Origin: Actinomycetota bacterium
Lineage (GTDB): Bacteria; Actinomycetota; Actinomycetes; S36-B12; UBA10799
NCBI GenBank assembly: GCA_020636995.1
Contig: JACJWU010000008.1
Span: forward strand, 555-64,554
Length of the DNA: 64,000 nt
Reading direction: 5' to 3'
Both the position numbers and the translations under genes were made by a program. Below are positions 8,179 through 21,266 of the stretch, in pieces; position 1 is the first letter of the stretch; every line of letters starts with the position of its first letter. Under the pieces are notes generated by a model, which made no database searches, had not been told where the DNA came from, and saw nothing but the letters and a program-made list of their open reading frames with translations.

Positions 8179-10821
8179 CTAGCCCATCCGCCCGATGATC
8201 AGGTCGGCCACCAGGCCGGTCCACCCGGTCTGATGACTCGCGCCGAGGCCGGCGCCGTTGTCACCGTGGAAGTACTCGAAGAAGTAGGGCGCGAAGTTCC
8301 AGCGGGGATCGGTCTGGAACTTCTCGGTGTCGCCGAAGACCGGCCGCCGGCCGTCCTGGTCGGGCAAGAAGATGCTGATCAACCGGCGCCGCAGTTCCTC
8401 GGCCACCTCGCGCATGTTGGCCATCTCGCCGCTGCCGGTGGGGCATTCCACCTGGAAGGAATCCCCGAGGTACATGTAGTAGCGCTCGAGGGCCTCGATC
8501 ACGAGGTGGTTGATCGGGAACCATACCGGCCCTCGCCAGTTGGAGTTGCCCCCGTACATGGGGGTCGCCGACTCGGCCGGCTCGTAGTCCACATCGAACG
8601 ACTGGCCGTCGATCTTGACGCTGAACGGGGCAGCCTTGTGCCGTTTCGACAGGCTGCGCAACCCGTGCGGTGACAGGAAGGAGTCCTCGCTGAGGACCTC
8701 CAGCATGACCCGGCGCAGGCGTTCCGGGTCCAGCACCGTGAGCAGCAGTTTGCTCTGCTCGGGCGAGCGGTAGACGAAGCCGGCGCGTCCCGAGTCGATC
8801 GTGTCCAGCCCGCGGCGGCGTAGGAAGTCGGCGAAGCGCTCATACAGACGAGCGTTGCGTTGCAGGGCCTTGTCGGTCTCGATCCAGGCCGCGGCCAGGA
8901 TCGGGATCAGCCCGACGATCGAGCGGACCCGCAGCGCCTCCTTGGTGCCGTCGGGGCGCAGCAACTGGTCGTAGAAGAAGCCCTCCTGCCAGTCCCACAT
9001 GCCACTGGCGGCCATCCCGTCGGTGATGGACGCGAAGTGCTCGGCGAACTTCAAGGCCATCGCGTCGTAGACCGGGTCGTGCTCGGCCAGTCGCAGCGCG
9101 ATGCGCAGCATGCTCAGGCAGTAGAACGCCATCCATGCGGTGCCGTCGGCCTGTTCCAGCCCGCAGCCGGCTGGCAGTTGCGAGCGGTTGATCGGGCCCA
9201 CGTTGTCCAGGCCCAGGAATCCGCCCTGGAAGACGTTGTTGCCCTCGGAGTCCACGCGGTTGACCCACCAGGTGAAGTTCATCAGCAGCTTCTGGAAGAC
9301 CTCCTGCAGGAAGTCGTAGTCCTTCGTGCCGTCGATCTCGAAGACCCGCAAGGCGGCCCACGCGTGGACCGGCGGGTTGATGTCGCTGAAGTTCCACTCG
9401 TACGCGGGCAGTGCACCGTTGGGGTGCATGTACCACTCGCGGCACATGAGCAACAACTGGTACTTGGCGTAGCTGGGATCGATGTGTGTGAACACCACCG
9501 TGTGGAAGGCGAGATCCCACGCCGCGAACCAGGGGTACTCCCAGGCGTCCGGCATCGAGATCACGTCGTAGGCGTCCACCTGCTGCCAGGTGTGGTTGCG
9601 CCGTTCCTCCGGCGGTGGCGGCGGGGGCTGGCCCGGATCGCCGGCCAGCCAGCGTTGGATGTCGTAGCGGTAGAACTGCTTGGTCCAGACCATCCCGGCG
9701 AACGCCGCACGCATAGCCTCCAACTCCGGCCCCGGGCAGTTGTCGGGGGCCAGATCGCCGTAGAACTCGTCGGCTTCGGCCTGGCGGGTGGCGAACAGTT
9801 CGTCGAAGTCCCTGCCGAGGGCGTCCGGATTGCGCTTGTTCTCCGGCGACTTCCACAGCCGCAGGCGGATCTCCTGGGACGCGCCGGCGGGTACGGTCAG
9901 CCGGTACCACCAGGCGCCTTTGGTGCCGCGGTTCTCCGGGTTGACGCTGGGTTCGCCGAGGCGCACGTGCCGGTCGATCCCGTCCTTGGGGTAGGAGGTG
10001 ATGTTCTCGGTTCCGAAGATCAGCTCATCGTTGGTCTCGTTGTTGCACAGCACCGGCGTCGGTGCCTGCCCGTCCGGCAGCGGACCCGGGTCGAGATGGT
10101 AGGTCCCTGATCGCCAGTGGGTGGCGATCAGCGCACCGGAGTCCATGCGCATCTCCGGTACGGGGTGCCCCCGGCCCCAACCCCAGGTGTTGCGGAACCA
10201 CACGGTCGGCAGCACGTCGATGGTGGCCTCGTCGGGTCCCGCGTTGGTCACCGTGACCCGGATGCTGATGTCGGTGGGTGTGGCCTTGGCGTAGTCGACA
10301 TCCACGACCCAGTAGCGGTCGTCGTCGAAGACGCCGGTGTCGATGAGTTCGTACTCCGGCTGGGTGCGGTCGCGTTCGCCGTTGGTCGCGATGAGGTCGT
10401 CGTAGGGGAAGGCCGCCTGCGGGTAGTGGTACCGCCATCGCAGCCAGGCATGCGACGGCAGCGCATCGCGGTACCAGTAGTACTCCTTGACATCCTCGCC
10501 GTGGTTGCCCTGTGAGCCGTCGAGGCCGAAAAGGCGCTCCTTGATCACCCGGTCCTGGCCGTTCCACAGGGCGATGGCGAAGCACGTGTCCTGCAGCAGG
10601 TCGGACAGTCCGGCCAGGCCGTCCTCGCTCCACCGGAAAGTGCGGGCATGGGCGTGTTCGAAGGGGAAATACTTCCAGGCGTCGCCGTCCGCGGAGTAGT
10701 CCTCGCGCACCGTGCCCCACGCGCGCTCGGACAGGTAGGGACCCCACTGGTACCACGGTCCTGCCTGCTCGGGCCCGCCGGCGATGCCGCCGGCCTGCTT
10801 CATCCGCTCGTACTCGCTCAC
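8179..10821 (-). CDS. GH63-like (MGH1-type) glucosidase
   Basis: WGPYLSERAWGTVREDYS, WEYPWFAAWDLAFH, NWRGPVWFP and GASHQTGWTG motifs. Start is GTG 10821 or TTG 10842. Confidence 0.85.
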   Translation of the reverse strand: MSEYERMKQAGGIAGGPEQAGPWYQWGPYLSERAWGTVREDYSADGDAWKYFPFEHAHARTFRWSEDGLAGLSDLLQDTCFAIALWNGQDRVIKERLFGLDGSQGNHGEDVKEYYWYRDALPSHAWLRWRYHYPQAAFPYDDLIATNGERDRTQPEYELIDTGVFDDDRYWVVDVDYAKATPTDISIRVTVTNAGPDEATIDVLPTVWFRNTWGWGRGHPVPEMRMDSGALIATHWRSGTYHLDPGPLPDGQAPTPVLCNNETNDELIFGTENITSYPKDGIDRHVRLGEPSVNPENRGTKGAWWYRLTVPAGASQEIRLRLWKSPENKRNPDALGRDFDELFATRQAEADEFYGDLAPDNCPGPELEAMRAAFAGMVWTKQFYRYDIQRWLAGDPGQPPPPPPEERRNHTWQQVDAYDVISMPDAWEYPWFAAWDLAFHTVVFTHIDPSYAKYQLLLMCREWYMHPNGALPAYEWNFSDINPPVHAWAALRVFEIDGTKDYDFLQEVFQKLLMNFTWWVNRVDSEGNNVFQGGFLGLDNVGPINRSQLPAGCGLEQADGTAWMAFYCLSMLRIALRLAEHDPVYDAMALKFAEHFASITDGMAASGMWDWQEGFFYDQLLRPDGTKEALRVRSIVGLIPILAAAWIETDKALQRNARLYERFADFLRRRGLDTIDSGRAGFVYRSPEQSKLLLTVLDPERLRRVMLEVLSEDSFLSPHGLRSLSKRHKAAPFSVKIDGQSFDVDYEPAESATPMYGGNSNWRGPVWFPINHLVIEALERYYMYLGDSFQVECPTGSGEMANMREVAEELRRRLISIFLPDQDGRRPVFGDTEKFQTDPRWNFAPYFFEYFHGDNGAGLGASHQTGWTGLVADLIIGRMG

Positions 10822-10918
10822 CGTGGCAGGGTAGTCCGGCAACAGACGTTGTGGCGCGGTCTACATCGAAGGAAATAGGGTAGTAGAGCAACGTGAAGGC
10901 GACATGGGGTGATTCGCA

Positions 10919-12226
10919 ATGGCCGCCCGGAGGCGCAAGCAACGTATAGCCATGATCTCGACCCACGGGTACGTGGCGGCAGAACCACCTTTGGGGGCGC
11001 CCGACACGGGCGGCCAGGTGGTCTACGTCCTGGAGTTGTCCCGCAAACTCGCCCAACTCGGGTACCGCGTGGACATCTGGACCCGCAGGTTCGAGAAACA
11101 GCGGCAGATCGAGGTCGTGGACGAGGACGTGCGGATCATCCGCATGCCCTGTGGTGGTCCGGACTTCATTCCCAAGGAGTACCTGTACAAGAAGCTGCCG
11201 GAGTGGGGGGAGAACGCTCTGCGCTTCATCCGCGACCGGCGGCTGGACTACGAGTTCATCAACAGTCACTACTGGGACGCCGGACTGGCCGGACAGCGGT
11301 TGTCCGAGGTGCTGGGGATCCCACATGTGCACACGCCGCACTCGCTGGGGATGTGGAAACAGGAACAGATGTCGCAGGACAGCGACAAGAGCGACGACGA
11401 GTTCGAGCAGCAGTACAACTTCAGCCGGCGCATCCATCACGAAACGACACTGTTCCGCGAGTGCGACCTGGTGATCGCCACGTCGCCGCAGCAGTTCGAT
11501 CTGCTGGAGACCGGCTACGAGGTGCCCGCCTCCCGCATGAAGATGATCCCGCCGGGCTACGACGACAACCGCTTCTTCCCGGTGAGTGGGGCGACCCGGC
11601 GCAGTATCCGGGAGGCGCTGGGCTACGAGGGCCTGGTCGTGGCCTCCATCGGTCGACTGGCCCGCAACAAGGGGTTCGACCTGCTCGTCGACGCGTTCAG
11701 CGTCGTGGCCGATCGGGTGCCGGAGGCGCGGCTGCGGATCGCATGCGGTGCGGAGTCGTCGGACTACGGCGACGACGAGATCTTCACCGAGATCACCGAC
11801 AAGATCCGCGACTACGGCCTCGAGGACCGAGTGATCTTGTCGGGGTCGCTCGAGGACGACGAGATGGCGGACTTCTACCGGGCAGCCGACGTGTTCGCAC
11901 TGTCCAGCCGGTACGAGCCGTTCGGGATGACCGCGGTGGAGGCGATGGCCTGCGGCGCGCCGACCGTGATGACCATCCATGGCGGTCTGTGGCGTTCGGT
12001 GTACTTCGGGCAGCAGGCGCTGTACGCCGACACCACCGACAAGGAGGAGTTCGGGATCGCGCTGCTGCAGGCACTGAAGTACAGCCGCTTGCGGGCGCGG
12101 ATGCATCGTGAGGGTGCGCACCGGGTGCGTGCGCTGTTCACGTGGACCGGGATCGCCCAGCAGCTGATCAGCGCCGTGGAGGAGCGCGGGGCTCCGGGCT
12201 TCGATCTCGGCGACGATTTCGATTGA
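10919..12226 (+). CDS. mfpsA: Mannosylfructose-phosphate synthase-like GT4 glycosyltransferase (SPS family)
   Basis: ISTHGYVA.PPLGA.DTGGQVVYVLEL, FIPKEYL, HTPHSLG.WK, PPGYDDNRFFPVS, SRYEPFGMTA and LFTWTGIAQQL match my recollection of Agrobacterium MfpsA. Confidence 0.8.
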   Translation: MAARRRKQRIAMISTHGYVAAEPPLGAPDTGGQVVYVLELSRKLAQLGYRVDIWTRRFEKQRQIEVVDEDVRIIRMPCGGPDFIPKEYLYKKLPEWGENALRFIRDRRLDYEFINSHYWDAGLAGQRLSEVLGIPHVHTPHSLGMWKQEQMSQDSDKSDDEFEQQYNFSRRIHHETTLFRECDLVIATSPQQFDLLETGYEVPASRMKMIPPGYDDNRFFPVSGATRRSIREALGYEGLVVASIGRLARNKGFDLLVDAFSVVADRVPEARLRIACGAESSDYGDDEIFTEITDKIRDYGLEDRVILSGSLEDDEMADFYRAADVFALSSRYEPFGMTAVEAMACGAPTVMTIHGGLWRSVYFGQQALYADTTDKEEFGIALLQALKYSRLRARMHREGAHRVRALFTWTGIAQQLISAVEERGAPGFDLGDDFD

Positions 12227-12275
12227 GTCGGCAAACCGCAGTACTGTGCTGCCGGGTAGGCAGGAGAGGGTGCTG

Positions 12276-14345
12276 ATGGGTGCGGCGATGTTCTGTTCGG
12301 ATCTCGACGGGACGCTGCTGGGCAAACCGGACGCGACCGCGCGGTTCACGAGGGTGTGGCGTGGCCTCGACCGTGCGCCCCTGCTGACCTACACCACCGG
12401 GCGGCTGCTCAACGACGCCCTGAAAGTGATCGCCATCGCAGAGTTGCCGCAGCCGGACTTCCTCATCTGCGGTGTCGGCACGGTCATCTACGACCTGCGC
12501 AACCAGACGTTGCTCAAGCAGTTCTCCGAGGTCATGGAGGAAGGCTGGGACAAGCAGTCCATCGAGCGGATCATGCAGTCGTCCACCTCAGCGGTCCGGC
12601 AGCCTCCCCAGTTCCAGCACCGCTACAAGTCCAGCTGGTATCTCGAAGGGGCGTCCGAGGACGGCATCTCGACGCTGGAGGACCTGCTCAACGCGGAGGG
12701 ACTGGCGGTCAATGTCGTGTACTCCAGCGCCCGCGATCTGGACATTCTGCCCAAGATGGCGAACAAGGGGAACTCCGTGACCTGGCTGTTGCAGGAGCTG
12801 GGGATCCCCACCGACCAGGTGATCGTGGCCGGTGACTCCGGCAACGATGCGGCCATGTTCCTGCTCCCAGGCGTGCGCGGAATCATCGTCGAGAACGCGC
12901 AGCCCGAGTTGGCTGCGCGCACGTTGGGGGCGAACATCTACCTTGCCGAAGGGCATTTCGCCGACGGGGTGCTCGAAGGGCTGCAGCACTTCGGTGTCGT
13001 CGGGGATCTGCCCGAGTACGCGGACGAGCATGCGCATGCCAGACCCGCGGACCCGGCCATCGGTCGCATCTTCGACGTCGAGCGTGCCGACGGGTTGTCG
13101 GCAGAAGATGCCGAACTGCTGGAGGTCGCCTACGAGAAGGCACTCGAGGCGTTGCGGCGCAACATCACCCCGATGGGCTTCTCCGCGTGTTCGTTGGAGC
13201 ACAACTTCGCGCACGGGACCGACGTCAACTACCGCAGTGTCTGGGCCCGGGACGGCTCCATCGCCGTGGTCGGATCGATGCATGTCGACGATCCGGAGAT
13301 CCGGCAGTGCGCACGCACCACCCTGGTGACGTTGCTGGATCACATGAACCCCGTCGGCCAGGTGCCCGCCAACGTCAGCATCGATGACGGCATCCCCGAC
13401 TACTCCGGGATCGGTGGGATCAGTTCGATCGACTCCGGCCTGTGGACGATCATCGCGATGTACGAGTACGTGCGGGTGTCCGGGGACGTCGGCTTCCTGC
13501 GCGAGCGGCTGTGGCAACTGCAGCGGGCCATGGACTGGCTCAGCGCGCACGACAGCAACAACGACGCGATGCTGGAGATCCCCGAGGCCGGAGACTGGAC
13601 CGACCTGTTCGGACGCAGCTACAACGTGCTGGTGGACGAGGTCCTCTGGTACCGCGCGAATGTCGCGTACGGACGGCTGCTGGAGCTGGCCGGCGAGCCG
13701 GAACGGGCGGCGGACTATCTGCGCTGGTCGCAGACCATCAAGTCGGTGCTGCTGGACAGATTCTGGCCCACCACCAAGCCGCGCGGCGACGAGGGCGCGG
13801 GGACACTGTTCACCGAGCGACAACTCGGCGTGGGCGACACCCGGTACCTGCTGGCCCAAGTGACCCCGTTCGACTTCGACTGGCGCTGCGACGTGTACGG
13901 CAACGTGCTGGCGGTGTTGTTCAACGTACTCGACGTGGCCCGGGCGCGGATCGCCTTCCGGTTCATGTGGGGGGTGGGGATCAACGATCCGTGGCCGGTC
14001 AAGAACCTCTATCCGGTGGTCCACTCCGGCGATCCTTCGTGGCGGCCGTACTACACCGTGAACCTGCTCAACCTCCCGCACCACTACCACAACGGCGGGA
14101 TCTGGCCGTTCATCGGAGGGCAGTGGGTGCGGTTCATCCAGCGCCTCGGCTATCGCGGGATCGCCTTCCAGGAGTTGGTGAAGCTGGCGAGACTCAACCA
14201 AGCCGGGATCTACGGCGAGTGGGAGTTCAACGAGTGGGCGCACGGGGAGACCGGCCGTCCCATGGGGAAGGCCTACCAGGCGTGGTCGGCCTCCGAGTTC
14301 CTGCTCGCCTGCCACGAGTTGCGCCTCGGGTCAGTGAGTCACTGA
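12276..14345 (+). CDS. Fusion of HAD-IIB (SPP/MfppA-like) phosphatase and C-terminal GH100/GDE-like (alpha/alpha)6 glycoside hydrolase
   Basis: N-terminal SDLDGTL, DILP..NKG and GDSGND; C-terminal VWARDG, DSGLW, YHNGGIWPF and QAWSA; one uninterrupted frame with an SD before ATG 12276. Confidence 0.8.
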   Translation: MGAAMFCSDLDGTLLGKPDATARFTRVWRGLDRAPLLTYTTGRLLNDALKVIAIAELPQPDFLICGVGTVIYDLRNQTLLKQFSEVMEEGWDKQSIERIMQSSTSAVRQPPQFQHRYKSSWYLEGASEDGISTLEDLLNAEGLAVNVVYSSARDLDILPKMANKGNSVTWLLQELGIPTDQVIVAGDSGNDAAMFLLPGVRGIIVENAQPELAARTLGANIYLAEGHFADGVLEGLQHFGVVGDLPEYADEHAHARPADPAIGRIFDVERADGLSAEDAELLEVAYEKALEALRRNITPMGFSACSLEHNFAHGTDVNYRSVWARDGSIAVVGSMHVDDPEIRQCARTTLVTLLDHMNPVGQVPANVSIDDGIPDYSGIGGISSIDSGLWTIIAMYEYVRVSGDVGFLRERLWQLQRAMDWLSAHDSNNDAMLEIPEAGDWTDLFGRSYNVLVDEVLWYRANVAYGRLLELAGEPERAADYLRWSQTIKSVLLDRFWPTTKPRGDEGAGTLFTERQLGVGDTRYLLAQVTPFDFDWRCDVYGNVLAVLFNVLDVARARIAFRFMWGVGINDPWPVKNLYPVVHSGDPSWRPYYTVNLLNLPHHYHNGGIWPFIGGQWVRFIQRLGYRGIAFQELVKLARLNQAGIYGEWEFNEWAHGETGRPMGKAYQAWSASEFLLACHELRLGSVSH

Positions 14346-14448
14346 CACCGCGTTCACCGAGGGCGAAGTCCGGAAGCCCACAAGACGCCTCGTGGTTGTC
14401 GTGGTACGAGGCTAAAGTGAGAAGTCTTCAGGCGATGGGAGTCATCGG

Positions 14449-16944
14449 ATGTTTGAGAGGTTCACCGACCGGGCCCGCCGCGTGGTTGTGCTCGCGCAAG
14501 AAGAGGCGCGGATGCTCAATCACAACTACATCGGCACCGAGCACATCCTGCTCGGGCTGATCCACGAGGGCGAGGGTGTGGCCGCGAAGGCTCTCGAGAG
14601 CCTGAACATCTCGTTGGACGCCGTACGCCAGCAGGTGGAGGAGATGATCGGCCAGGGCCAGCAGGCTCCCAGCGGTCACATTCCCTTCACCCCGCGCGCC
14701 AAGAAGGTCCTCGAGTTGTCGCTGCGTGAGGCGTTGCAGCTCGGGCACAACTACATCGGCACCGAGCACATCCTGCTCGGCCTGATCCGCGAGGGCGAAG
14801 GGGTTGCCGCCCAAGTGCTGGTGAAGCTCGGCGCCGACCTGAACAAGGTCCGTCAGCAAGTCATCCAGCTGCTGTCCGGTTACCAGGGCAAGGAGCCCGC
14901 CACCGCCGGTGGGCCGCAGGAGGGGACTCCGTCGAGTTCGCTGGTGCTCGACCAGTTCGGACGCAACCTGACGCAGGCGGCCAGAGAGGCCAAACTCGAC
15001 CCGGTCATCGGTCGTGAGAAAGAGATCGAGCGGGTCATGCAGGTGCTGTCCCGCCGCACGAAGAACAACCCGGTGCTCATCGGCGAACCCGGCGTCGGCA
15101 AGACCGCGGTCGTCGAGGGCCTCGCGCAGATGATCGTGCGCAACGAGGTGCCGGAGACGCTGAAGGACAAGCAGCTCTACACCCTCGACCTCGGCGCCCT
15201 GGTCGCGGGCAGCCGCTACCGCGGTGACTTCGAGGAGCGCCTGAAGAAGGTGCTCAAGGAGATCCGCACCCGCGGCGACATCATCCTGTTCATCGACGAG
15301 ATGCACACGCTGGTCGGTGCCGGCGCGGCCGAGGGTGCGATCGACGCCGCCAGCATCCTGAAGCCCATGCTGGCCCGCGGTGAACTGCAGACGATCGGTG
15401 CGACGACGCTCGACGAGTACCGCAAGTACGTCGAGAAGGATGCCGCGCTGGAGCGCCGGTTCCAGCCGATCCAGGTGCAGGAGCCGACCCTGGCCCACAC
15501 CATCGAGATCCTCAAGGGTCTGCGCGACCGCTACGAGAACCACCACCGCGTCACGATCACCGACAGCGCGCTGGTGGCCTCGGCCACCCTGGCCGATCGG
15601 TACATCAACGACCGGTTCCTTCCGGACAAGGCCATCGACCTGATCGACGAGGCCGGTTCGCGGTTGCGCATCCGCCGGATGACCGCGCCGCCGGACCTGC
15701 GCGAACTCGACGAGCGGATCGCCGGCGTGCGCCGCGAGAAGGAGTCCGCGATCGACGAGCAGGACTTCGAGAAGGCCGCGGCGCTGCGCGACAACGAGAA
15801 GAAGCTCATGTCCGAGCGTGCCGAGCGCGAGCGGCAGTGGAAGGCCGGCGACATGGACGTCGTGGCGCAGGTCGATGAGGAGTTGATCGCAGAGGTTCTG
15901 GCCACCGCCACCGGCATCCCGATCTTCAAACTCACCGAGGAGGAGTCGCAGCGGCTGCTCAAGATGGAGGAGGAGCTGCACAAGCGCGTCATCGGCCAGG
16001 AGCAGGCCATCCACGCACTGTCGCAGGCGATCCGCCGTACCCGCGCCGGACTCAAGGACCCGAAGCGTCCCGGCGGTTCGTTCATCTTCGCCGGGCCGTC
16101 CGGGGTCGGGAAGACCGAGTTGTCCAAGACCCTGGCCGAGTTCCTGTTCGGCGACGAGGACAGCCTCATCAGCCTGGACATGAGTGAGTTCTCCGAGAAG
16201 CACACCGTGTCGCGGCTGTTCGGTTCGCCCCCCGGCTACGTCGGGTACGACGAGGGCGGGCAGTTGACCGAGAAGGTGCGGCGCAAGCCGTTCTCGGTGG
16301 TGCTGTTCGACGAGGTGGAGAAGGCACACCCGGACATCTTCAACTCGCTGTTGCAGATCCTGGAGGACGGTCGCCTGACCGACTCGCAGGGCCGCGTGGT
16401 GGACTTCAAGAACACCGTCATCATCATGACCACGAACCTCGGTACCCGCGACATCGCGCGCGGTGTGAACCTCGGGTTCGCCAACGAGGACGACACGAAG
16501 ACCTCGTACGAGCGGATGAAGGCAAAGGTCAACGAGGAGCTCAAGAACCACTTCCGACCCGAGTTCCTCAACCGCATCGACGACATCATCGTGTTCCACC
16601 AGCTGACCCGCGAGGAGATCGTCCAGATCGTCGACCTGATGGTCGCGAAGCTCGACGAGCGGCTGCGGGACAAGGACATGGGCATCGAGTTGACGCAGGC
16701 CGCCAAGGACGCCCTGGCGATCCGCGGTTACGACCCGGTGCTCGGCGCGCGGCCCCTGCGTCGCACCATCCAGCGCGACATCGAAGACGCCCTGAGCGAG
16801 AAGATCCTCTTCGGGGAACTCGGGCCGGGACAGATCGTTCTGGTCGACGCAGAGGGCGAGGGCACCAACGCGGTGTTCACCTTCACGGGCACGGCGTCCG
16901 CTCAGGCGCCGGATGTCCCGCCGGTGGAGGCCGCGGAGGGCTGA
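14449..16944 (+). CDS. clpC: ATP-dependent Clp protease ATP-binding subunit ClpC
   Basis: [21 protein letters not shown] start; two Walker A motifs ([16 protein letters not shown]). Confidence 0.98.
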
Positions 16945-16955
16945 GCGACTACCAG

Positions 16956-16990
16956 CGAAGGGTCGGGTGCTTCGGCGCCCGGCCCTTTCG
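16956..16990 (+). terminator. Intrinsic terminator hairpin after clpC
   Basis: CGAAGGGTCGGGTGC-TTCG-GCGCCCGGCCCTTTCG. Confidence 0.75.
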
Positions 16991-17023
16991 TGTGCCGGCC
17001 GGTGCCTGGTGCTGCCCGCGACC

Positions 17024-17084
17024 GTTGAGTGCTGCGCGGTTACGGGTTTGAGGCACAGGAATCGGTAACCGTGCAGCAGTGAAC
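17024..17084. repeat. Solo imperfect inverted repeat between convergent clpC and mutY
   Basis: GTTGAGTGCTGCGCGGTTAC pairs with GTAACCGTGCAGCAGTGAAC (17 of 20). Confidence 0.55.
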
Positions 17085-17161
17085 TGTATGCATCGGCCGT
17101 CCGGGATGGGTTTCCCGGTTCTGGTGCTGGTGTTCGTCGTACGTGCGTGCGTGCATGCCGC

Positions 17162-17980
17162 CTAGGGAAGAGACCACTGCCGTTCGCGCACGATGAGACC
17201 ATCGGCGAGCAGGGAGTCGAGTGCGCGCTGGAGTTGTTCGGCGTCGGGCCATTCGAACGCGTCCGCCGGTCCCTCGCGCAGTACCGCCAGGACGGCGCCC
17301 CTGGCCTGCCGGTCTGTGCCCTCGTAGGCCTGCGGACGACTGGTCCGCTGCCCGGTCGGTACCCAGTTGCACACCTCAGCGAGCGGACAGTTGGCGCAAT
17401 CCGGGTTCCGCGCGGTGCAGACCAATGCACCGAACTCCATCGCCGCCGCCGCCCACAGCGCAGCTGGCACTTCCACGTCGGCGTGGACCTCCGCGGCGAG
17501 GGTGCGCTCGGCCGCGGTGAAGCTGGGTGCCGGATCCCCGCCGGTCAGGACTCGCACCAGGAGGCGGCGGACATTGACGTCGACCACGACGGCGTCCCGG
17601 CCGTAGGCGAAGGCCGCGACCGCAGCAGCCGTGTACTCCCCGACCCCTGGCAGGGACAACAGGTCGGCCTCGTCTGCGGGGACCTCGCCGCCGAAACGAT
17701 CCCGCATGATCACTGCCGCTTCGTGCAGGCGTTTGGCTCGTCGCGGGTAGCCCAGCCGGCCCCATGCCCGGATCGCCTCCCCGGGGGTGTCATCCGCGAG
17801 GGCCGCGGGCGTCGGCCACCGCCGCAGCCACTCGTGCCACGCGGGTAGCACGCGGACCACCGGCGTCTGTTGCAGCATGATCTCGCTGACGTAGACACCC
17901 CACGGCGTGCTGGTCCGCCAGGGCAGATCCCGCCGGTGTTCGGCGAACCATTCGGTGACGATCCGGTCGAGGTGTGCCAT
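17162..17980 (-). CDS. mutY: A/G-specific adenine glycosylase
   Basis: RDLPWR, VSEIMLQQT, LGYPRRA, LPGVGEYTA and Fe-S motif CTARNPDCANCPLAEVC. Confidence 0.93.
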   Translation of the reverse strand: MAHLDRIVTEWFAEHRRDLPWRTSTPWGVYVSEIMLQQTPVVRVLPAWHEWLRRWPTPAALADDTPGEAIRAWGRLGYPRRAKRLHEAAVIMRDRFGGEVPADEADLLSLPGVGEYTAAAVAAFAYGRDAVVVDVNVRRLLVRVLTGGDPAPSFTAAERTLAAEVHADVEVPAALWAAAAMEFGALVCTARNPDCANCPLAEVCNWVPTGQRTSRPQAYEGTDRQARGAVLAVLREGPADAFEWPDAEQLQRALDSLLADGLIVRERQWSLP

Positions 17981-18065
17981 CACGGCCATTCTTGCGGCCG
18001 CCGGAGCGTCGGCAACCCGGACCCGGCGCGGTCGCCGGGGGAACGCCTTGCATACCGTGGCTGTC

Positions 18066-18680
18066 ATGAGTTCGTTGCTGCATCCGGTGGGGCCGGAACC
18101 GGCCAGCGTCTACTGGCGACGGCGCATCATCGTCGTCATCGGGATCCTGGTGGTTCTCGGACTGCTGTGGTGGCTGATCTCCCCGAGTGGGGGGTCCGCT
18201 CCGGCTGCATCATCGGCCAGCCCCACCCCGCTGCCCACGTTGAGCAGCGCGGCTCCGAGCGTCTCGCCGTCGGCGTCCGTGTCCGGGGCCCAGTGCGCCG
18301 ACTCCGACATCGCCGTCACGGTGACGACCGAGCAGCAGGCCTACTCCGTGGGCGGGCCGGTTGAGTTCGTGATGAAGATCAGCAACACCGGCGGCGTGCC
18401 GTGCGTGCGCGATGTCGGAACGATCGCGAACACGTTCGTCGTGACCTCCGGCGGATTCGATGTGTGGAACTCCGACGCGTGTTCCGGCACCGACGAGGTG
18501 CAGGAGGCACAGGAGGAGGAGATCCCGGCTGGGGAGGCATTCGCGGTCAAGGGCACCTGGGACGGAACCGTGACGGCCAACGGTTGTGAGAACGCCACCC
18601 CGGCAGAGGCCGGCGCCTATCAGGTGGAGGCGAGCAACGGCGACGTCGTCAGCGAGCCTGTGACCTTCAGCCTCGGCTGA
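18066..18680 (+). CDS. Conserved actinobacterial membrane-anchored protein (Rv3587c-like)
   Basis: VGPEPASVYWRRR plus a TM helix, C.D and VWNSD.C motifs; located between mutY and disA. Confidence 0.7.
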   Translation: MSSLLHPVGPEPASVYWRRRIIVVIGILVVLGLLWWLISPSGGSAPAASSASPTPLPTLSSAAPSVSPSASVSGAQCADSDIAVTVTTEQQAYSVGGPVEFVMKISNTGGVPCVRDVGTIANTFVVTSGGFDVWNSDACSGTDEVQEAQEEEIPAGEAFAVKGTWDGTVTANGCENATPAEAGAYQVEASNGDVVSEPVTFSLG

Positions 18681-19742
18681 TCACTGGTAGCGGTCCAGGA
18701 TCGAGGACTCGGCGAGGCGCGACAACGCGTCGCGCACGCTGCGGGCTCGCGCCTCACCCACGCCTTCGACGGACTGCAGATCGTCAATCGAGGCCGCCAG
18801 CAACTTCTGCAGGCTCCCGAAGTGCTCGATGAGGCGTTCCACCACAGGCTCCGGAAGCCGGGGGACCCTGCCCAGCAGTCGGTACCCGCGCGGGCTCAGG
18901 GGGCGGTCGAGTCCGTCGAGATCGGAGGCGAGTCCCATCATCTGCCCCAGTTGTGGCAGGTCCACCAGGGCGGAATCCTCCACCTGGTCCAGGACCGCGA
19001 CCGTCTGCTCGAGATGTCCGGGGTCTGGCAGGTAATCGCGCAATAGCAGCACCTGATCTCCGCCGACGCCGGTGACCACCTCTTGCAGTTGCAGGTCCAG
19101 CAACCGGCCGTCGACGCCGAGTTCCACCACGAATTCGTCGATCTCCGCGGTCATCCGGCGGACCATCTCCAGGCGCTGCGTCACCAGCAGGACGTCGCGT
19201 ACGGTCACGAGGTCCTCGACCTCGAGAGCGGACAGGGTCGCCCCGACCTCATCGAGTCGTTGCCGGTAGCGCTCCAGGGTGGCAAGCGCCTGGTTGGCCT
19301 TGCCAAGAATGACTGTGGAGTCCTCCAGGACCTTCCGCTGGCCTTCGAAATACAGCGCGATGGTCTGCATGGACTTGCTGACGCTGATCACGGGGAAGCC
19401 GGTCTGCACTGCGACGCGTTCCGCGGTGCGATGGCGGGTGCCGGTCTCCTGGGTGGGAATGGCGGGGTCGGGCAGCAGTTGCACCGCAGCCCGCACGATC
19501 CGGGTGGCGCTGTTGTCGAGGATCACCGCGCCGTCCATTTTGGCCAGTTCCCGCAAGCCGGTGGAGGTGAACTCGACATCCATGCCGAAGCCGCCACCGG
19601 AGATGCGCTCCACGACCTCGTCGCTGCCGATGACGATCAACCCGCCGGTGCGGCCCCGCAGAATGCGCTCCAGTCCTTCCCGCAGAGGCGTTCCGGGCGC
19701 CACCTGCGCCAATGCGGCCCGGATCCGCGACCCTCTGTCCAT
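18681..19742 (-). CDS. disA: DNA integrity scanning diadenylate cyclase DisA
   Basis: VAPGT.LREGLERI, ELAKMDGA, ETGTRHRTAER and C-terminal HhH. Confidence 0.96.
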   Translation of the reverse strand: MDRGSRIRAALAQVAPGTPLREGLERILRGRTGGLIVIGSDEVVERISGGGFGMDVEFTSTGLRELAKMDGAVILDNSATRIVRAAVQLLPDPAIPTQETGTRHRTAERVAVQTGFPVISVSKSMQTIALYFEGQRKVLEDSTVILGKANQALATLERYRQRLDEVGATLSALEVEDLVTVRDVLLVTQRLEMVRRMTAEIDEFVVELGVDGRLLDLQLQEVVTGVGGDQVLLLRDYLPDPGHLEQTVAVLDQVEDSALVDLPQLGQMMGLASDLDGLDRPLSPRGYRLLGRVPRLPEPVVERLIEHFGSLQKLLAASIDDLQSVEGVGEARARSVRDALSRLAESSILDRYQ

Positions 19743-19802
19743 GGACTCTCCCTCGTGTTGAGGGCATTATCGCCCGAGGTCCGCCGCCTCGGCGCGTTGA
19801 TT

Positions 19803-21266
19803 TCAGAAGGGGGCGTCGACCGCGTGCAGTTGGGCCCGTCGGGCGGTTTCCGGCGCGGGTGCCCGCCGCATCGCCCCGAGCAGGTCGCTGAGTCGGTGGA
19901 TCGGTTGCACCGACAGGCCGTCCGTGGCCCGTACGACCTCGGCCTGGCGTCCGGCGTCCGCCGGAATGATCACGCGCTTGAACCCTAGCCGGGCTGCTTC
20001 TGCCACTCGCTTGGCTAACCCGGGGACGACGCGCAGATCGCCGGACAGGGTCACCTCGCCGATCGCCACGGTGTCGGTCCACAGCGGCGCATCCAGGCGT
20101 GCCGACGCCACCGCGAGGCAGAGTGCGAGATCCGCACCGGGGTCGCTGATCTTTGCCCCACCCACCGTCGCGACGTACACGTCCCGGTTGCCCAGTTGCA
20201 GGGCGCCGGCCTTCTCGGTCACCGTCACCAACATCGTGCTCCGGCTGAGCTCGAGCCCGGTGGCGGCTCGACGTGGGGTCTGGGCGATGCTGCCGGCCAC
20301 CAGGGCCTGCACCTCGGCGACCAGCGGTCGGCGGCCCTCCATCGTCACGGTCAGGCACGACCCCGGCACGGGTGTCTCACGGACCTTGCGGAACAACTCG
20401 GAGGGATCCGCCACCTCCCGCAGGCCCTCCTCATCGTGCTCGAAACAGGCGACCTCGTCGGTCGGGCCGAACCGGTTCTTCACCGAGCGCAGCAGCCGCA
20501 GCGCCGAGGTGCGGTCGCCCTCGAAGGTGACCACGGTGTCGACGAGGTGCTCGAGGGCGCGCGGGCCGGCCACGGAGTTCTCGCGCGTGGACTGGCCCAC
20601 CAGCAGAGTCGGCAGGTGATGGCTCTTGGCCCATTGGGTGATGACCTGCGTGACTTCGTGGACCTGTGCGACACCGCCGGCCCGGGAGTCGATCGCAGAG
20701 GTGGCAATGGTCTGGACCGAGTCCACGATCAGTAGTGAGGGGCGGGTCTGGGCCACATGGGCCAGGACCTGCTCGAGCTCGGTCTCGTCGGCGATCAGCA
20801 GGTTGGGGTGCATCGCCCCGATCCGGCGGGCCCGCAGGCCGATCTGTTCAGCCGACTCCTCGCCGGAGATGTACAGAACGGTTCCGCGGCGTTCGGCGAA
20901 CCTGTGGCCGACGTCGAGCAGGAGGGTGGACTTGCCGACCCCCGGTTCCCCGGCCACCAGCACGACTTGCCCCGGTACCAGACCGCCCCCGAGTACCCGG
21001 TCGAACTCGGCAACGCCGGTGCTGCGGCGGGCGTGTTCCTCCGCGCGCAGGTCGACGACCGCTCGTGCCGCTCGGGTGGGCCCGCCCGAGGGTCCCTTGG
21101 TCTTGGACCCGGCCTTGGGCCGGTGGGACGCTGCGGCCTCCGAGATCGTGCCGAACGTTCCGCATGAGGCACACTTCCCCAGCCATTTCGCCGTGCGGTT
21201 GCCGCACGCGGAGCACTCGTACTCGGTCTTGGGCACGTTCGTCAGCCTAGGTGCCGGGTGCGACAT
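19803..21266 (-). CDS. radA: DNA repair protein RadA/Sms
   Basis: N-terminal C4 zinc finger, GEPGVGKST, KNRFG motif. Confidence 0.96.
   Translation of the reverse strand: MSHPAPRLTNVPKTEYECSACGNRTAKWLGKCASCGTFGTISEAAASHRPKAGSKTKGPSGGPTRAARAVVDLRAEEHARRSTGVAEFDRVLGGGLVPGQVVLVAGEPGVGKSTLLLDVGHRFAERRGTVLYISGEESAEQIGLRARRIGAMHPNLLIADETELEQVLAHVAQTRPSLLIVDSVQTIATSAIDSRAGGVAQVHEVTQVITQWAKSHHLPTLLVGQSTRENSVAGPRALEHLVDTVVTFEGDRTSALRLLRSVKNRFGPTDEVACFEHDEEGLREVADPSELFRKVRETPVPGSCLTVTMEGRRPLVAEVQALVAGSIAQTPRRAATGLELSRSTMLVTVTEKAGALQLGNRDVYVATVGGAKISDPGADLALCLAVASARLDAPLWTDTVAIGEVTLSGDLRVVPGLAKRVAEAARLGFKRVIIPADAGRQAEVVRATDGLSVQPIHRLSDLLGAMRRAPAPETARRAQLHAVDAPF

What the first reader, a model, noticed from the sequence alone, without database searches (positions are those of the whole stretch)
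12276..14345. Phosphatase fused to an invertase/GDE-like hydrolase: synthesis and breakdown in one polypeptide
Seen: intact HAD motifs in the first ~250 aa and an (alpha/alpha)6 hydrolase signature set afterwards, in one frame. Inference: the enzyme finishing the disaccharide may also hydrolyse it (a candidate mannosylfructose hydrolase), implying a regulated switch or futile cycle.
Basis: partly seen in the sequence, partly recalled or inferred. Interest (0 to 1): 0.62.

Follow-up and report, generated by a model that had tools for sequence, protein, structure and literature searches.

The report
Sucrose-type phosphatase fused to invertase-like hydrolase
One gene joins the enzyme that finishes making a sucrose-type sugar to an enzyme predicted to split that sugar again; this untested design is common in many bacterial phyla and reached this actinobacterium as a two-gene cassette, probably to set the size of a protective sugar pool.

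Summary
ORF 12276-14345 (689 aa) is one frame with two domains. The N-terminal domain is a HAD-IIB sucrose-phosphatase-type domain with all four catalytic motifs. The C-terminal domain is a single (alpha/alpha)6 domain whose closest sequence and fold relatives are GH100 alkaline/neutral invertases. Its acid Asp, base Glu and 'fixer' Asp are invariant in 78 relatives.

The gene sits 49 nt downstream of an SPS-like GT4 gene. The GT4 + phosphatase + hydrolase trio is conserved in more than six phyla, either fused or as separate neighbouring genes.

The sugar is more likely sucrose than mannosylfructose. In two Verrucomicrobia genomes the fusion's adjacent synthase is a canonical sucrose-phosphate synthase, and one of them holds no GT4 orthologue at all. 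The donor sugar of this GT4 remains unproven.

- **Dead phosphatase in Chloroflexota:** there the fused phosphatase has lost its catalytic Lys, and an intact phosphatase gene lies next door in most loci. The fusion is therefore kept for more than catalysis.
- **Cassette:** here the two genes form a 3.5-kb insertion/deletion between a GH63-like gene and clpC. It is present in about half of the genus, and its tree position is nested inside Verrucomicrobiota.

No biochemical study of the fusion was found. Verdict: a real, uncharacterised variant of known sucrose enzymes. The regulated-switch mechanism is inferred, not shown.

The parts
10837..14349 (+). 3.5-kb two-gene cassette (GT4 + fusion), an insertion/deletion relative to same-genus genomes
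   Evidence: In G007 and G010 the GH63-like gene (window 8181-10836) and the clpC leader and gene (window 14350-16944) lie about 80 bp apart, with nothing matching 10837-14349. No flanking repeats were found.
10919..12226 (+). SPS-like GT4 glycosyltransferase (435 aa; database gene models start 11 codons later). Predicted to make a hexosyl-fructose-6-phosphate, most likely sucrose-6F-phosphate.
   Evidence: Pfam Glycos_transf_1 / Glyco_transf_4 / GT-B_Sucrose_synth. TIGR02472 SPS_N scores 206.8 bits (cut-off 576), the same as MshA at 206.8. Best PDB hits are T. elongatus SPS 6kih (E 2e-51), MshA 3c48 and H. orenii SPS 2r60. It carries the 'PDTGGQVVYV' motif and the His158, Arg178 and Glu331 equivalents of TeSPS. 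A true MshA lies elsewhere in the genome.
12262..12269 (+). Shine-Dalgarno-like AGGAGAGG, 6 nt before the ATG of the fusion gene
   Evidence: Read directly from the sequence. There is no credible terminator between the two genes.
12276..14345 (+). Fusion gene, 689 aa plus stop
12285..12995 (+). HAD-IIB sucrose-phosphatase-type domain (aa 4-240) with all four catalytic motifs (D9, D11, T41, K164, D187, D191)
   Evidence: Pfam S6PP E 1.5e-65. TIGR01485 scores 156.5 bits, below the 183.65 cut-off. Synechocystis SPP 1s2o: E 4e-31 by sequence; by fold TM (target) 0.82 at 32% identity. Motif columns. It is the only S6PP-type domain in the genome.
12996..13130 (+). Linker (aa 241-285), partly helical, lower model confidence
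   Evidence: AF2 model: pLDDT 56-80 over aa 250-280, helices 250-254, 260-269 and 276-294.
13131..14342 (+). GH100-like single-domain (alpha/alpha)6 hydrolase (aa 286-689). Predicted acid D443 (13602-13604), base E653 (14232-14234), fixer D326.
   Evidence: A profile of 20 C-domains against PDB hits InvA 5goo at E 3.4e-21 over positions 27-411 of 416. Foldseek finds InvA, InvB and AtNIN2 (TM target about 0.65, E about 1e-11) ahead of all other six-hairpin hydrolases. Invariant residues.

Best explanation
The GT4 gene and the fusion gene form a two-gene module that makes and removes a sucrose-type non-reducing disaccharide, most likely sucrose itself. Step 1 (inferred): the GT4 transfers a hexose, probably glucose, from a nucleotide sugar to fructose-6-phosphate. 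Step 2 (inferred from intact motifs): the N-terminal HAD domain, the only SPP-type phosphatase in the genome, removes the phosphate. Step 3 (inferred from conserved catalytic residues): the C-terminal GH100-like domain, an inverting alpha-glycosidase of clan GH-G, splits the free disaccharide into two hexoses. Synthesis and breakdown are made in fixed 1:1 amounts, so the pool size would be set after translation. One likely control is opposite responses to ionic strength or metabolites, as proposed for cyanobacterial Sps/Inv and GgpS/GghA. The phosphatase-like module probably also has a structural or sensing role for the hydrolase, because Chloroflexota keep it fused after it lost its catalytic residues. 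In this actinobacterial genus the module is an accessory cassette that came from a Verrucomicrobiota-like donor.
For: - **Domains:** both domains are real and look catalytically complete.
- **Closest structures:** these are the two sucrose enzymes, Synechocystis SPP and GH100 invertases InvA/InvB/AtNIN2, by sequence and by fold.
- **Gene neighbourhood:** GT4 + HAD + GH co-occur in most of 80 genome loci over at least six phyla. They are fused in Actinomycetota, Verrucomicrobiota, Bacteroidota, Acidobacteriota, Spirochaetota, Lentisphaerota and Chloroflexota. They are three separate genes in varying order in Acidimicrobiia and Pirellulaceae. No fourth gene is conserved.
- **Link to sucrose:** in L022 and L026 the partner is a canonical bimodular SPS (TIGR02472 611 bits, cut-off 576). 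The L022 genome has no GT4 orthologue. L022's fusion is nested among GT4-partnered Verrucomicrobia.
- **GT4 acceptor:** it carries the SPS/SuSy 'PDTGGQ' motif, whose Gln binds fructose in TeSPS (MshA has GGM), plus the catalytic His and Glu.
- **Own genome:** one S6PP domain, one GH100-like domain, no canonical SPS, and a separate true MshA.
- **Non-catalytic role of the HAD module:** all 12 Chloroflexota fusions aligned, and further ones, lack the motif III Lys. Four also lack the second Asp of DxD. An intact stand-alone S6PP gene lies within the fetched locus in 11 of the 17 Chloroflexota loci.
- **Precedent:** salt activates Sps/GgpS and inhibits Inv/GghA in Synechocystis, and ggpS and gghA are neighbours (PMC6753628).
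Against: - No enzyme of this fusion family has been assayed, so every activity is predicted.
- The GT4 scores far below the SPS equivalog cut-off (207 vs 576 bits) and equally well against MshA.
- JGI pipelines label its orthologues 'mannosylfructose-phosphate synthase', and I could not obtain Agrobacterium MfpsA for a tree.
- The donor sugar cannot be read from sequence: in TeSPS the glucose O2 contacts only the UDP phosphate.
- The HAD domain is below the SPP equivalog cut-off (156.5 vs 183.65 bits).
- The GH domain is only about 20% identical to GH100 invertases. It lacks the InvA/InvB Arg430 position (a 3-residue deletion, with K665 beside it).
- The model is poor around the catalytic loops (aa 437-448 and 574-608, pLDDT below 50).
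Confidence: 0.58

Rival explanations
1. One reading: the module makes and hydrolyses mannosylfructose. The GT4 would be a GDP-mannose-dependent mannosylfructose-phosphate synthase, the HAD domain the mannosylfructose-phosphate phosphatase, and the C-domain a mannosylfructose hydrolase.
For: - JGI automatic annotation names many GT4 orthologues 'mannosylfructose-phosphate synthase'.
- The GT4 is clearly outside the canonical SPS equivalog (207 vs 576 bits).
- From my own knowledge of Torres & Salerno 2007: MFPS/MFPP are close relatives of SPS/SPP and also use fructose-6-phosphate, so every motif seen here fits them as well.
- Some clan GH-G relatives (GH63 MgH/GgH type) accept alpha-mannosides.
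Against: - The same pipelines call the fused phosphatase 'sucrose-6F-phosphate phosphohydrolase', so the automatic labels disagree with each other.
- The nearest solved relatives of both fusion domains are sucrose enzymes.
- Within the fusion family the GT4 has been replaced by a bona fide SPS in L022/L026, and the fusion still groups with GT4-partnered Verrucomicrobia, though L022 sits on a long branch (0.88).
- GH100 enzymes bind glucose at subsite -1 (PMC13671375).
Confidence: 0.13
2. The module handles another, so far unnamed glycoside. The GT4 makes a different hexosyl-sugar-phosphate, or the hydrolase domain acts on a different alpha-glucoside than the phosphatase's product, such as glucosylsucrose, kojibiose-type or glycogen-derived oligosaccharides. 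The fusion would then link two steps of one route rather than opposing steps.
For: - All three proteins are below the curated equivalog cut-offs.
- The GH domain is only about 20% identical to invertases and also matches GDE_C and MGH1-like models.
- Clan GH-G subsite +1 is highly variable between families (PMC13671375).
- Caldilineaceae loci add a GH13 enzyme.
- A stand-alone branch of the GH subfamily (L073-L080, 37-40% identity) occurs without GT4 or HAD neighbours.
Against: - The tight three-way gene linkage across phyla, the SPS-type fructose-binding motif and the pairing with canonical SPS are explained most simply by sucrose.
- The profile search places GH100 invertases about 10 orders of magnitude ahead of the next PDB family in E-value.
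Confidence: 0.17
3. One of the two domains in this particular protein is non-catalytic: a dead hydrolase, or a phosphatase-like module acting only as a binding or scaffold domain. The protein would then have a single activity.
For: - Chloroflexota relatives show that a catalytically dead HAD module can persist in the fusion.
- Plant and many bacterial SPS carry an inactive SPP-like domain (my own knowledge; bimodular SPS seen).
Against: - In the window's protein all four HAD motifs and the Asp/Glu/Asp set of the hydrolase are intact and invariant in its clade.
- The genome has no other SPP-type phosphatase to serve the GT4.
Confidence: 0.07

Closest known systems
Cyanobacterial/plant sucrose pathway: SPS (T. 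elongatus Tll1590, PDB 6kih; H. orenii 2r60), SPP (Synechocystis Slr0953, PDB 1s2o) and GH100 alkaline/neutral invertases (Anabaena InvA 5goo-5gor, InvB 5z73; Arabidopsis 6ttj)
   Same: The same three enzyme families in the same logical order. HAD motifs and fold match SPP (TM target 0.82). The GH domain shares the fold, the acid Asp, the base Glu, the RD 'fixer' and the YHNGGxWP motif with GH100. The GT4 shares the fructose-binding GGQ motif and the catalytic His and Glu.
   Different: SPP and invertase are one polypeptide here, whereas they are separate proteins, usually unlinked, in cyanobacteria and plants. All three are divergent and below the equivalog cut-offs: about 32% identity to SPP, 20% to InvA and under 30% to canonical SPS. 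The InvA/InvB Arg430 position is deleted. The hosts are heterotrophic bacteria, which reviews say lack A/N invertases (PMC6753628).
Agrobacterium tumefaciens mannosylfructose pathway (MfpsA/MfppA; Torres & Salerno 2007, not held in the library)
   Same: A two-gene operon of an SPS-like GT4 followed by an SPP-like phosphatase, making a non-reducing hexosyl-fructoside osmolyte. Automatic pipelines give the GT4 this name.
   Different: As far as I know, no hydrolase domain is attached to MfppA. Here the evidence favours glucose over mannose as the donor. Membership could not be tested for lack of the reference sequences.
Synechocystis glucosylglycerol system ggpS/gghA, and the model of inversely ion-regulated synthesis and degradation (PMC6753628)
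   Same: Genes for making and for hydrolysing a compatible solute are neighbours and co-expressed. Pool size is set by opposite post-translational responses of the two activities.
   Different: A different solute and different enzyme families. The genes are adjacent but not fused. Regulation has been shown there and is only inferred here.
Bimodular SPS with a C-terminal SPP-like domain (TIGR02472 + TIGR02471), often catalytically inactive
   Same: An SPP-like HAD module is kept as a fused partner after losing catalytic residues, as in the Chloroflexota branch of this fusion family.
   Different: There the partner is the synthase; here it is the hydrolase.
GH176 / GDE_C archaeal-type 'debranching' enzymes (TgAMY 7vma; Arthrobacter alpha-1,2-glucosidase, PMC13671375)
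   Same: Same clan-type six-hairpin barrel with the Asp/Glu/Asp arrangement. The Pfam GDE_C model matches aa 321-675.
   Different: [quoted passage not shown] The profile hit to 7vma is marginal (E 0.004) against 3e-21 for GH100.

Membership tests
HAD-IIB sucrose-phosphate phosphatase (Pfam S6PP PF05116; NCBIfam TIGR01485) | Four HAD catalytic motifs (DxD nucleophile, Thr/Ser, Lys, DD) | tested here: met
   D9-L-D11, T41, K164 and D187/D191 are conserved across the Actinomycetota/Verrucomicrobiota clade.
HAD-IIB sucrose-phosphate phosphatase (Pfam S6PP PF05116; NCBIfam TIGR01485) | Score above the curated family thresholds | tested here: inconclusive
   Pfam S6PP scores 221.7 bits against a cut-off of 20.3, so it is met. 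NCBIfam equivalog TIGR01485 scores 156.5 against 183.65, so it is not met.
HAD-IIB sucrose-phosphate phosphatase (Pfam S6PP PF05116; NCBIfam TIGR01485) | SPP fold (core plus cap 'sugar tongs') | tested here: met
   Foldseek best hit is 1s2o: E 6e-17, TM (target) 0.82, 32% identity. pLDDT is about 80-95 over aa 1-240.
HAD-IIB sucrose-phosphate phosphatase (Pfam S6PP PF05116; NCBIfam TIGR01485) | Specific hydrolysis of sucrose-6F-phosphate | not testable with these tools
   Needs an enzyme assay.
GH100 alkaline/neutral invertase | Sequence membership (Pfam PF12899 above the gathering score; full-length alignment to solved members) | tested here: met
   57.4 bits against a cut-off of 23.6, best stretch covering only model positions 275-430. 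The family profile aligns to InvA over 27-411 of 416 positions at E 3.4e-21. Identity is only about 20%, so this is a distant subfamily.
GH100 alkaline/neutral invertase | Catalytic acid Asp188 and base Glu414 (InvA numbering) | tested here: met
   D443 and E653 align to them and are invariant in 78 sequences.
GH100 alkaline/neutral invertase | Arg430, reported as needed for activity in InvA/InvB | tested here: not met
   The position falls in a 3-residue deletion (GKearIYQTWS in InvA against GK---AYQAWS here). The nearly invariant K665 lies beside it and may substitute, but that is untested.
GH100 alkaline/neutral invertase | Single-domain (alpha/alpha)6 barrel without a beta-sandwich | tested here: met
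   The model is all-helical from aa 276 to 681. The top Foldseek hits for this half are GH100 structures.
GH100 alkaline/neutral invertase | Hydrolysis of sucrose as an alpha-glucosidase | not testable with these tools
   Needs an enzyme assay.
Sucrose-phosphate synthase (GT4; TIGR02472) | Score above the equivalog cut-off | tested here: not met
   206.8 bits against 576. The canonical SPS of L022 reaches 611.
Sucrose-phosphate synthase (GT4; TIGR02472) | Fructose-6-phosphate acceptor site (GGQ motif Gln, basic residues for the phosphate) and catalytic His and Glu | tested here: met
   PDTGGQVVYV, K (for Arg105), R (Arg178), H in HSLG (His158) and the EPFG Glu (Glu331) align with TeSPS. MshA has GGM at the Gln site.
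Mannosylfructose-phosphate synthase/phosphatase (MfpsA/MfppA) | GDP-mannose donor; orthology to Agrobacterium Atu0661/Atu0660 | not testable with these tools
   The reference sequences and the paper were not obtainable. Only automatic JGI labels exist, and the replacement of the GT4 by a canonical SPS argues against this reading.
MshA (mycothiol GlcNAc-inositol-phosphate synthase) | Score above the equivalog cut-off; the genome's sole candidate | tested here: not met
   206 bits against 462.5. A true MshA (602.8 bits) lies at G000:C13:6737-7951.
GH176 / GDE_C glycogen-debranching-type enzymes | N-terminal beta-sandwich plus barrel; significant similarity to TgAMY | tested here: not met
   There is no beta-sandwich, and the profile hit to 7vma is only E 0.004 over 76 residues.

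The most novel reading that the evidence does not exclude
The SPP-like module is not just a phosphatase that happens to be attached. It would be a ligand-sensing or scaffolding partner that controls the invertase-like domain. For example, it could shut hydrolysis off while sucrose-6-phosphate is being made, or dock the hydrolase onto the synthase. The fusion would then be a self-contained switch that sets the sucrose pool in heterotrophic bacteria of many phyla. The Chloroflexota branch, which keeps a catalytically dead SPP module fused while encoding an active SPP next door, would be the purely regulatory form.
Probability: 0.25. Interest if true: 0.72.

Novelty: new variant of a known kind. 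Interest (0 to 1): 0.52.

Why it matters
Sucrose metabolism is textbook biology for plants and cyanobacteria, and reviews still state that alkaline/neutral invertases are confined to them. Here a distant GH100-like hydrolase is fused or linked to SPP and an SPS-like synthase in more than 2,000 database proteins (90%-identity cluster representatives). These come from Verrucomicrobiota, Chloroflexota, Actinomycetota, Planctomycetota and other phyla.

If the activities are as predicted, many heterotrophic soil, freshwater and marine bacteria make and turn over sucrose with a compact, mobile module. Its fused design gives a directly testable model of how a cell sets the level of a compatible solute without transcriptional control. 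The dead-phosphatase branch offers a natural experiment on what the fusion is for.

Tried and rejected
1. **MshA reading of the GT4.** Rejected: the genome has a separate MshA above the cut-off, and the module occurs in phyla without mycothiol.
2. **GH63/MGH1-like gene (8179-10842) and clpC as parts of the system.** Rejected: they are conserved only in close Actinomycetota and stay adjacent where the cassette is absent.
3. **GDE_C/GH176 membership.** Rejected.
4. **A conserved fourth gene (kinase, transporter, nucleotide-sugar enzyme) to name the sugar.** None is conserved beyond the trio. Only a GH13 gene recurs, in 7 Chloroflexota (mostly Caldilineaceae) loci.
5. **Reading donor specificity from TeSPS contacts.** Not informative: O2 binds only the UDP phosphate.
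6. **Fetching key papers.** Not held: Torres & Salerno 2007, Xie et al. 2016, Fieulaine et al. 2005. Residue-level comparison of the sugar subsites was therefore not possible.
7. **Literature searches for a characterised SPP-GH100 fusion.** Nothing found. Kiritimatiella sucrose synthesis is predicted from its genome only.
8. **Compositional signal of transfer.** None: cassette GC is 65.4% against 67.8% for the window, and GC3 is 0.89 against 0.91.
9. **Flanking repeats, promoter or terminator.** Nothing above chance.
11. **The apparent pseudogene in G003.** This is probably assembly indel error. The neighbouring GH63-like gene is broken into frames in the same 3-contig assembly.
Full report
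**Observation**

The frame from ATG 12276 to the stop at 14343-14345 is open and encodes 689 aa. An AGGAGAGG box lies 6 nt upstream of the ATG.

Pfam assigns S6PP to aa 4-240 (E 1.5e-65). It assigns two overlapping six-hairpin models to the rest: Glyco_hydro_100 (57.4 bits, cut-off 23.6) and GDE_C (44.5 bits, cut-off 21). The NCBIfam SPP equivalog is approached but not reached (156.5 vs 183.65 bits). The four HAD motifs are intact: D9xD11, T41, K164, D187/D191.

**The hydrolase half**

I searched a profile of 20 fused and stand-alone C-domains against all PDB sequences.
- It aligns end to end with Anabaena InvA (E 3.4e-21), InvB and Arabidopsis CINV1.
- The next family, rhamnosidases, is at about 1e-11. 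GH176 7vma and the GH63-type GgH are marginal.

An AlphaFold2 model (pLDDT 79.5, pTM 0.78) gives the same answer by fold. The N-half is closest to Synechocystis SPP 1s2o (TM target 0.82). The C-half is closest to the GH100 structures (TM target about 0.65).

Residue mapping:
- D443 aligns with InvA Asp188, the acid.
- E653 aligns with InvA Glu414, the base (residues named in PMC6995568).
- The RD 'fixer' (R325-D326) and YHNGGxWP are shared. This is the Asp/Glu/Asp logic of clan GH-G described in PMC13671375.
- These residues are invariant in 78 relatives.

Two caveats apply. The InvA/InvB Arg430 position is deleted, with K665 beside it. The model is poor in loops 437-448 and 574-608. It is a distant (about 20% identity) GH100-like subfamily, not a GDE/GH176 enzyme, because it has no beta-sandwich.

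**Context and distribution**

An SPS-like GT4 gene (10919-12226) lies 49 nt upstream on the same strand, with no credible terminator between.
- The fusion has more than 2,000 database relatives, and the top 120 almost all carry both domains at 680-727 aa.
- In the library clustered at 50% identity, about half a dozen clusters are full-length fusions. Dozens are roughly 400-aa stand-alone hydrolases or roughly 250-aa stand-alone phosphatases.
- Among 80 loci from species-representative genomes, the GT4, HAD and GH modules co-occur almost everywhere:
  - fused, with the GT4 upstream, in Actinomycetota, Verrucomicrobiota, Acidobacteriota, Spirochaetota and Lentisphaerota;
  - fused, with the GT4 downstream, in Bacteroidota and Chloroflexota;
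  - as three separate genes in shuffled order in Acidimicrobiia and a Pirellulaceae genome.
- No fourth gene is conserved.

Fusion in some lineages and separate neighbours in others is strong evidence that synthase, phosphatase and hydrolase act on one metabolite.

**Which sugar**

Evidence that the acceptor is fructose-6-phosphate:
- The GT4 scores equally against the SPS N-domain and MshA models (207 bits each, both far below cut-off).
- The genome has a true MshA elsewhere (603 bits) and no canonical SPS.
- The GT4 carries the SPS/sucrose-synthase 'PDTGGQVVYV' motif. Its Gln binds the fructose moiety in T. elongatus SPS, whereas MshA has Met there. It also has the catalytic His and Glu and the phosphate-binding basic residues.

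The same pipelines call the fusion 'sucrose-6F-phosphate phosphohydrolase'.

Two things favour sucrose.
1. Both fusion domains are nearest to the sucrose enzymes.
2. In two Verrucomicrobiia genomes (L022, L026) the gene next to the fusion is a canonical bimodular SPS (611 bits against a cut-off of 576).
   - The L022 genome has no orthologue of the GT4 at all.
   - L022's fusion is nested among GT4-partnered Verrucomicrobia (98/97 support, though on a long branch).

The donor sugar itself cannot be read from sequence, since glucose O2 contacts only the UDP phosphate in TeSPS. I could not obtain Agrobacterium MfpsA for a tree. I therefore put sucrose at roughly 0.6, mannosylfructose at about 0.13 and another glycoside at about 0.17.

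**What the fusion is for**

In every Chloroflexota member the fused HAD module has lost the motif III lysine (KGN changed to I/L/M/S-G). Four members have also lost the second Asp of DxD (DLEG twice, DIKD, DLAG). An intact stand-alone S6PP gene (AGKG, DVDDTL, GDSGND; Pfam about 200 bits) lies within the fetched locus in 11 of the 17 Chloroflexota loci.

So the phosphatase-like module is kept fused to the hydrolase after it stops being a phosphatase. This parallels the inactive SPP-like domain of many SPS proteins. It argues for a structural or ligand-sensing role in addition to catalysis. In the window's clade the module is catalytically complete and is the only SPP-type domain in the genome, so here it must also serve as the pathway phosphatase.

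The published cyanobacterial model fits. Salt activates Sps and GgpS and inhibits Inv and GghA, and ggpS and gghA are neighbours (PMC6753628). That gives a plausible way for co-expressed opposing activities to set a solute pool without a wasteful cycle. This step is inference.

**History in this genome**

The genome is 2.99 Mb in 17 contigs, 91.5% complete.
- The fusion is intact in 6 of 14 same-genus genomes and absent from 47 genomes of other genera in the family and order.
- One further copy (G003) appears frameshifted. The neighbouring gene is broken in the same way in that 3-contig assembly, so this is probably sequencing error.
- In two complete-looking genomes without the fusion, the GH63-like gene and clpC are about 80 bp apart. 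Exactly window 10837-14349 is missing.
- In the protein tree the Actinomycetota clade is nested inside Verrucomicrobiota, sister to Verrucomicrobiaceae (97/93).
- GC content is ameliorated and there are no flanking repeats.

The module is thus an accessory two-gene cassette acquired horizontally some time ago. It sits in the conserved clpC-disA-radA region.

**Known or new**

Full-text searches found no biochemical or genetic study of an SPP-GH100 fusion. A review states that A/N invertases are limited to cyanobacteria and plants. For the PVC group, sucrose synthesis has only been predicted from a genome.

Earlier notes of this scan on other genomes (e1-368463, e1-2726414 and others) reached the same sucrose/fusion reading. 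They are not independent evidence, but they show the family recurs.

I rate it a new variant of a known kind, of moderate interest. The mechanism awaits simple enzyme assays.

**Limits**

All activities are predicted. Three key structural and biochemical papers were not held.

Noticed in passing
window 8179-10842 (-): An 887-aa GH63/MGH1-like six-hairpin hydrolase lies divergent from the cassette. It stays next to clpC in genomes that lack the cassette, and it has a 54-55% identical paralogue elsewhere in sister genomes. Its substrate is unknown; it may act on a glucosyl- or mannosyl-glycerate-type solute.
   Followed up: partly
L022:8039-10246 and L026 (Verrucomicrobiia MAGs): The fusion is followed by a canonical bimodular SPS with an SPP-like C-domain, so these loci carry two SPP-type modules plus the hydrolase.
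   Followed up: partly
L041:3973-5733 and 6 other Chloroflexota (mostly Caldilineaceae) loci: A 587-aa GH13 alpha-amylase-family enzyme with a Malt_amylase_C domain sits beside the module. It may be a second route for using the disaccharide.
   Followed up: no
L073-L080 (Chloroflexota): A more distant branch of stand-alone hydrolases (37-40% identity, about 420 aa) occurs without GT4 or HAD neighbours. The GH subfamily is therefore wider than the trio.
   Followed up: no
G003:C1:1009144-1016408: Both the fusion and the adjacent GH63-like gene are split over several frames in a 3-contig assembly. This is more likely long-read indel error than real pseudogenes.
   Followed up: no
P0281 (representative library, 998 aa): A 998-aa protein matches the SPP-type domain at its N-terminus (32% identity, aa 3-239) and carries a long unexamined remainder. 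It may be another fusion architecture.
   Followed up: no
window 14449-21266: The cassette lies just upstream of the conserved actinobacterial clpC ... disA-radA housekeeping block. The clpC leader (14350-14448) is conserved even in genomes without the cassette.
   Followed up: partly
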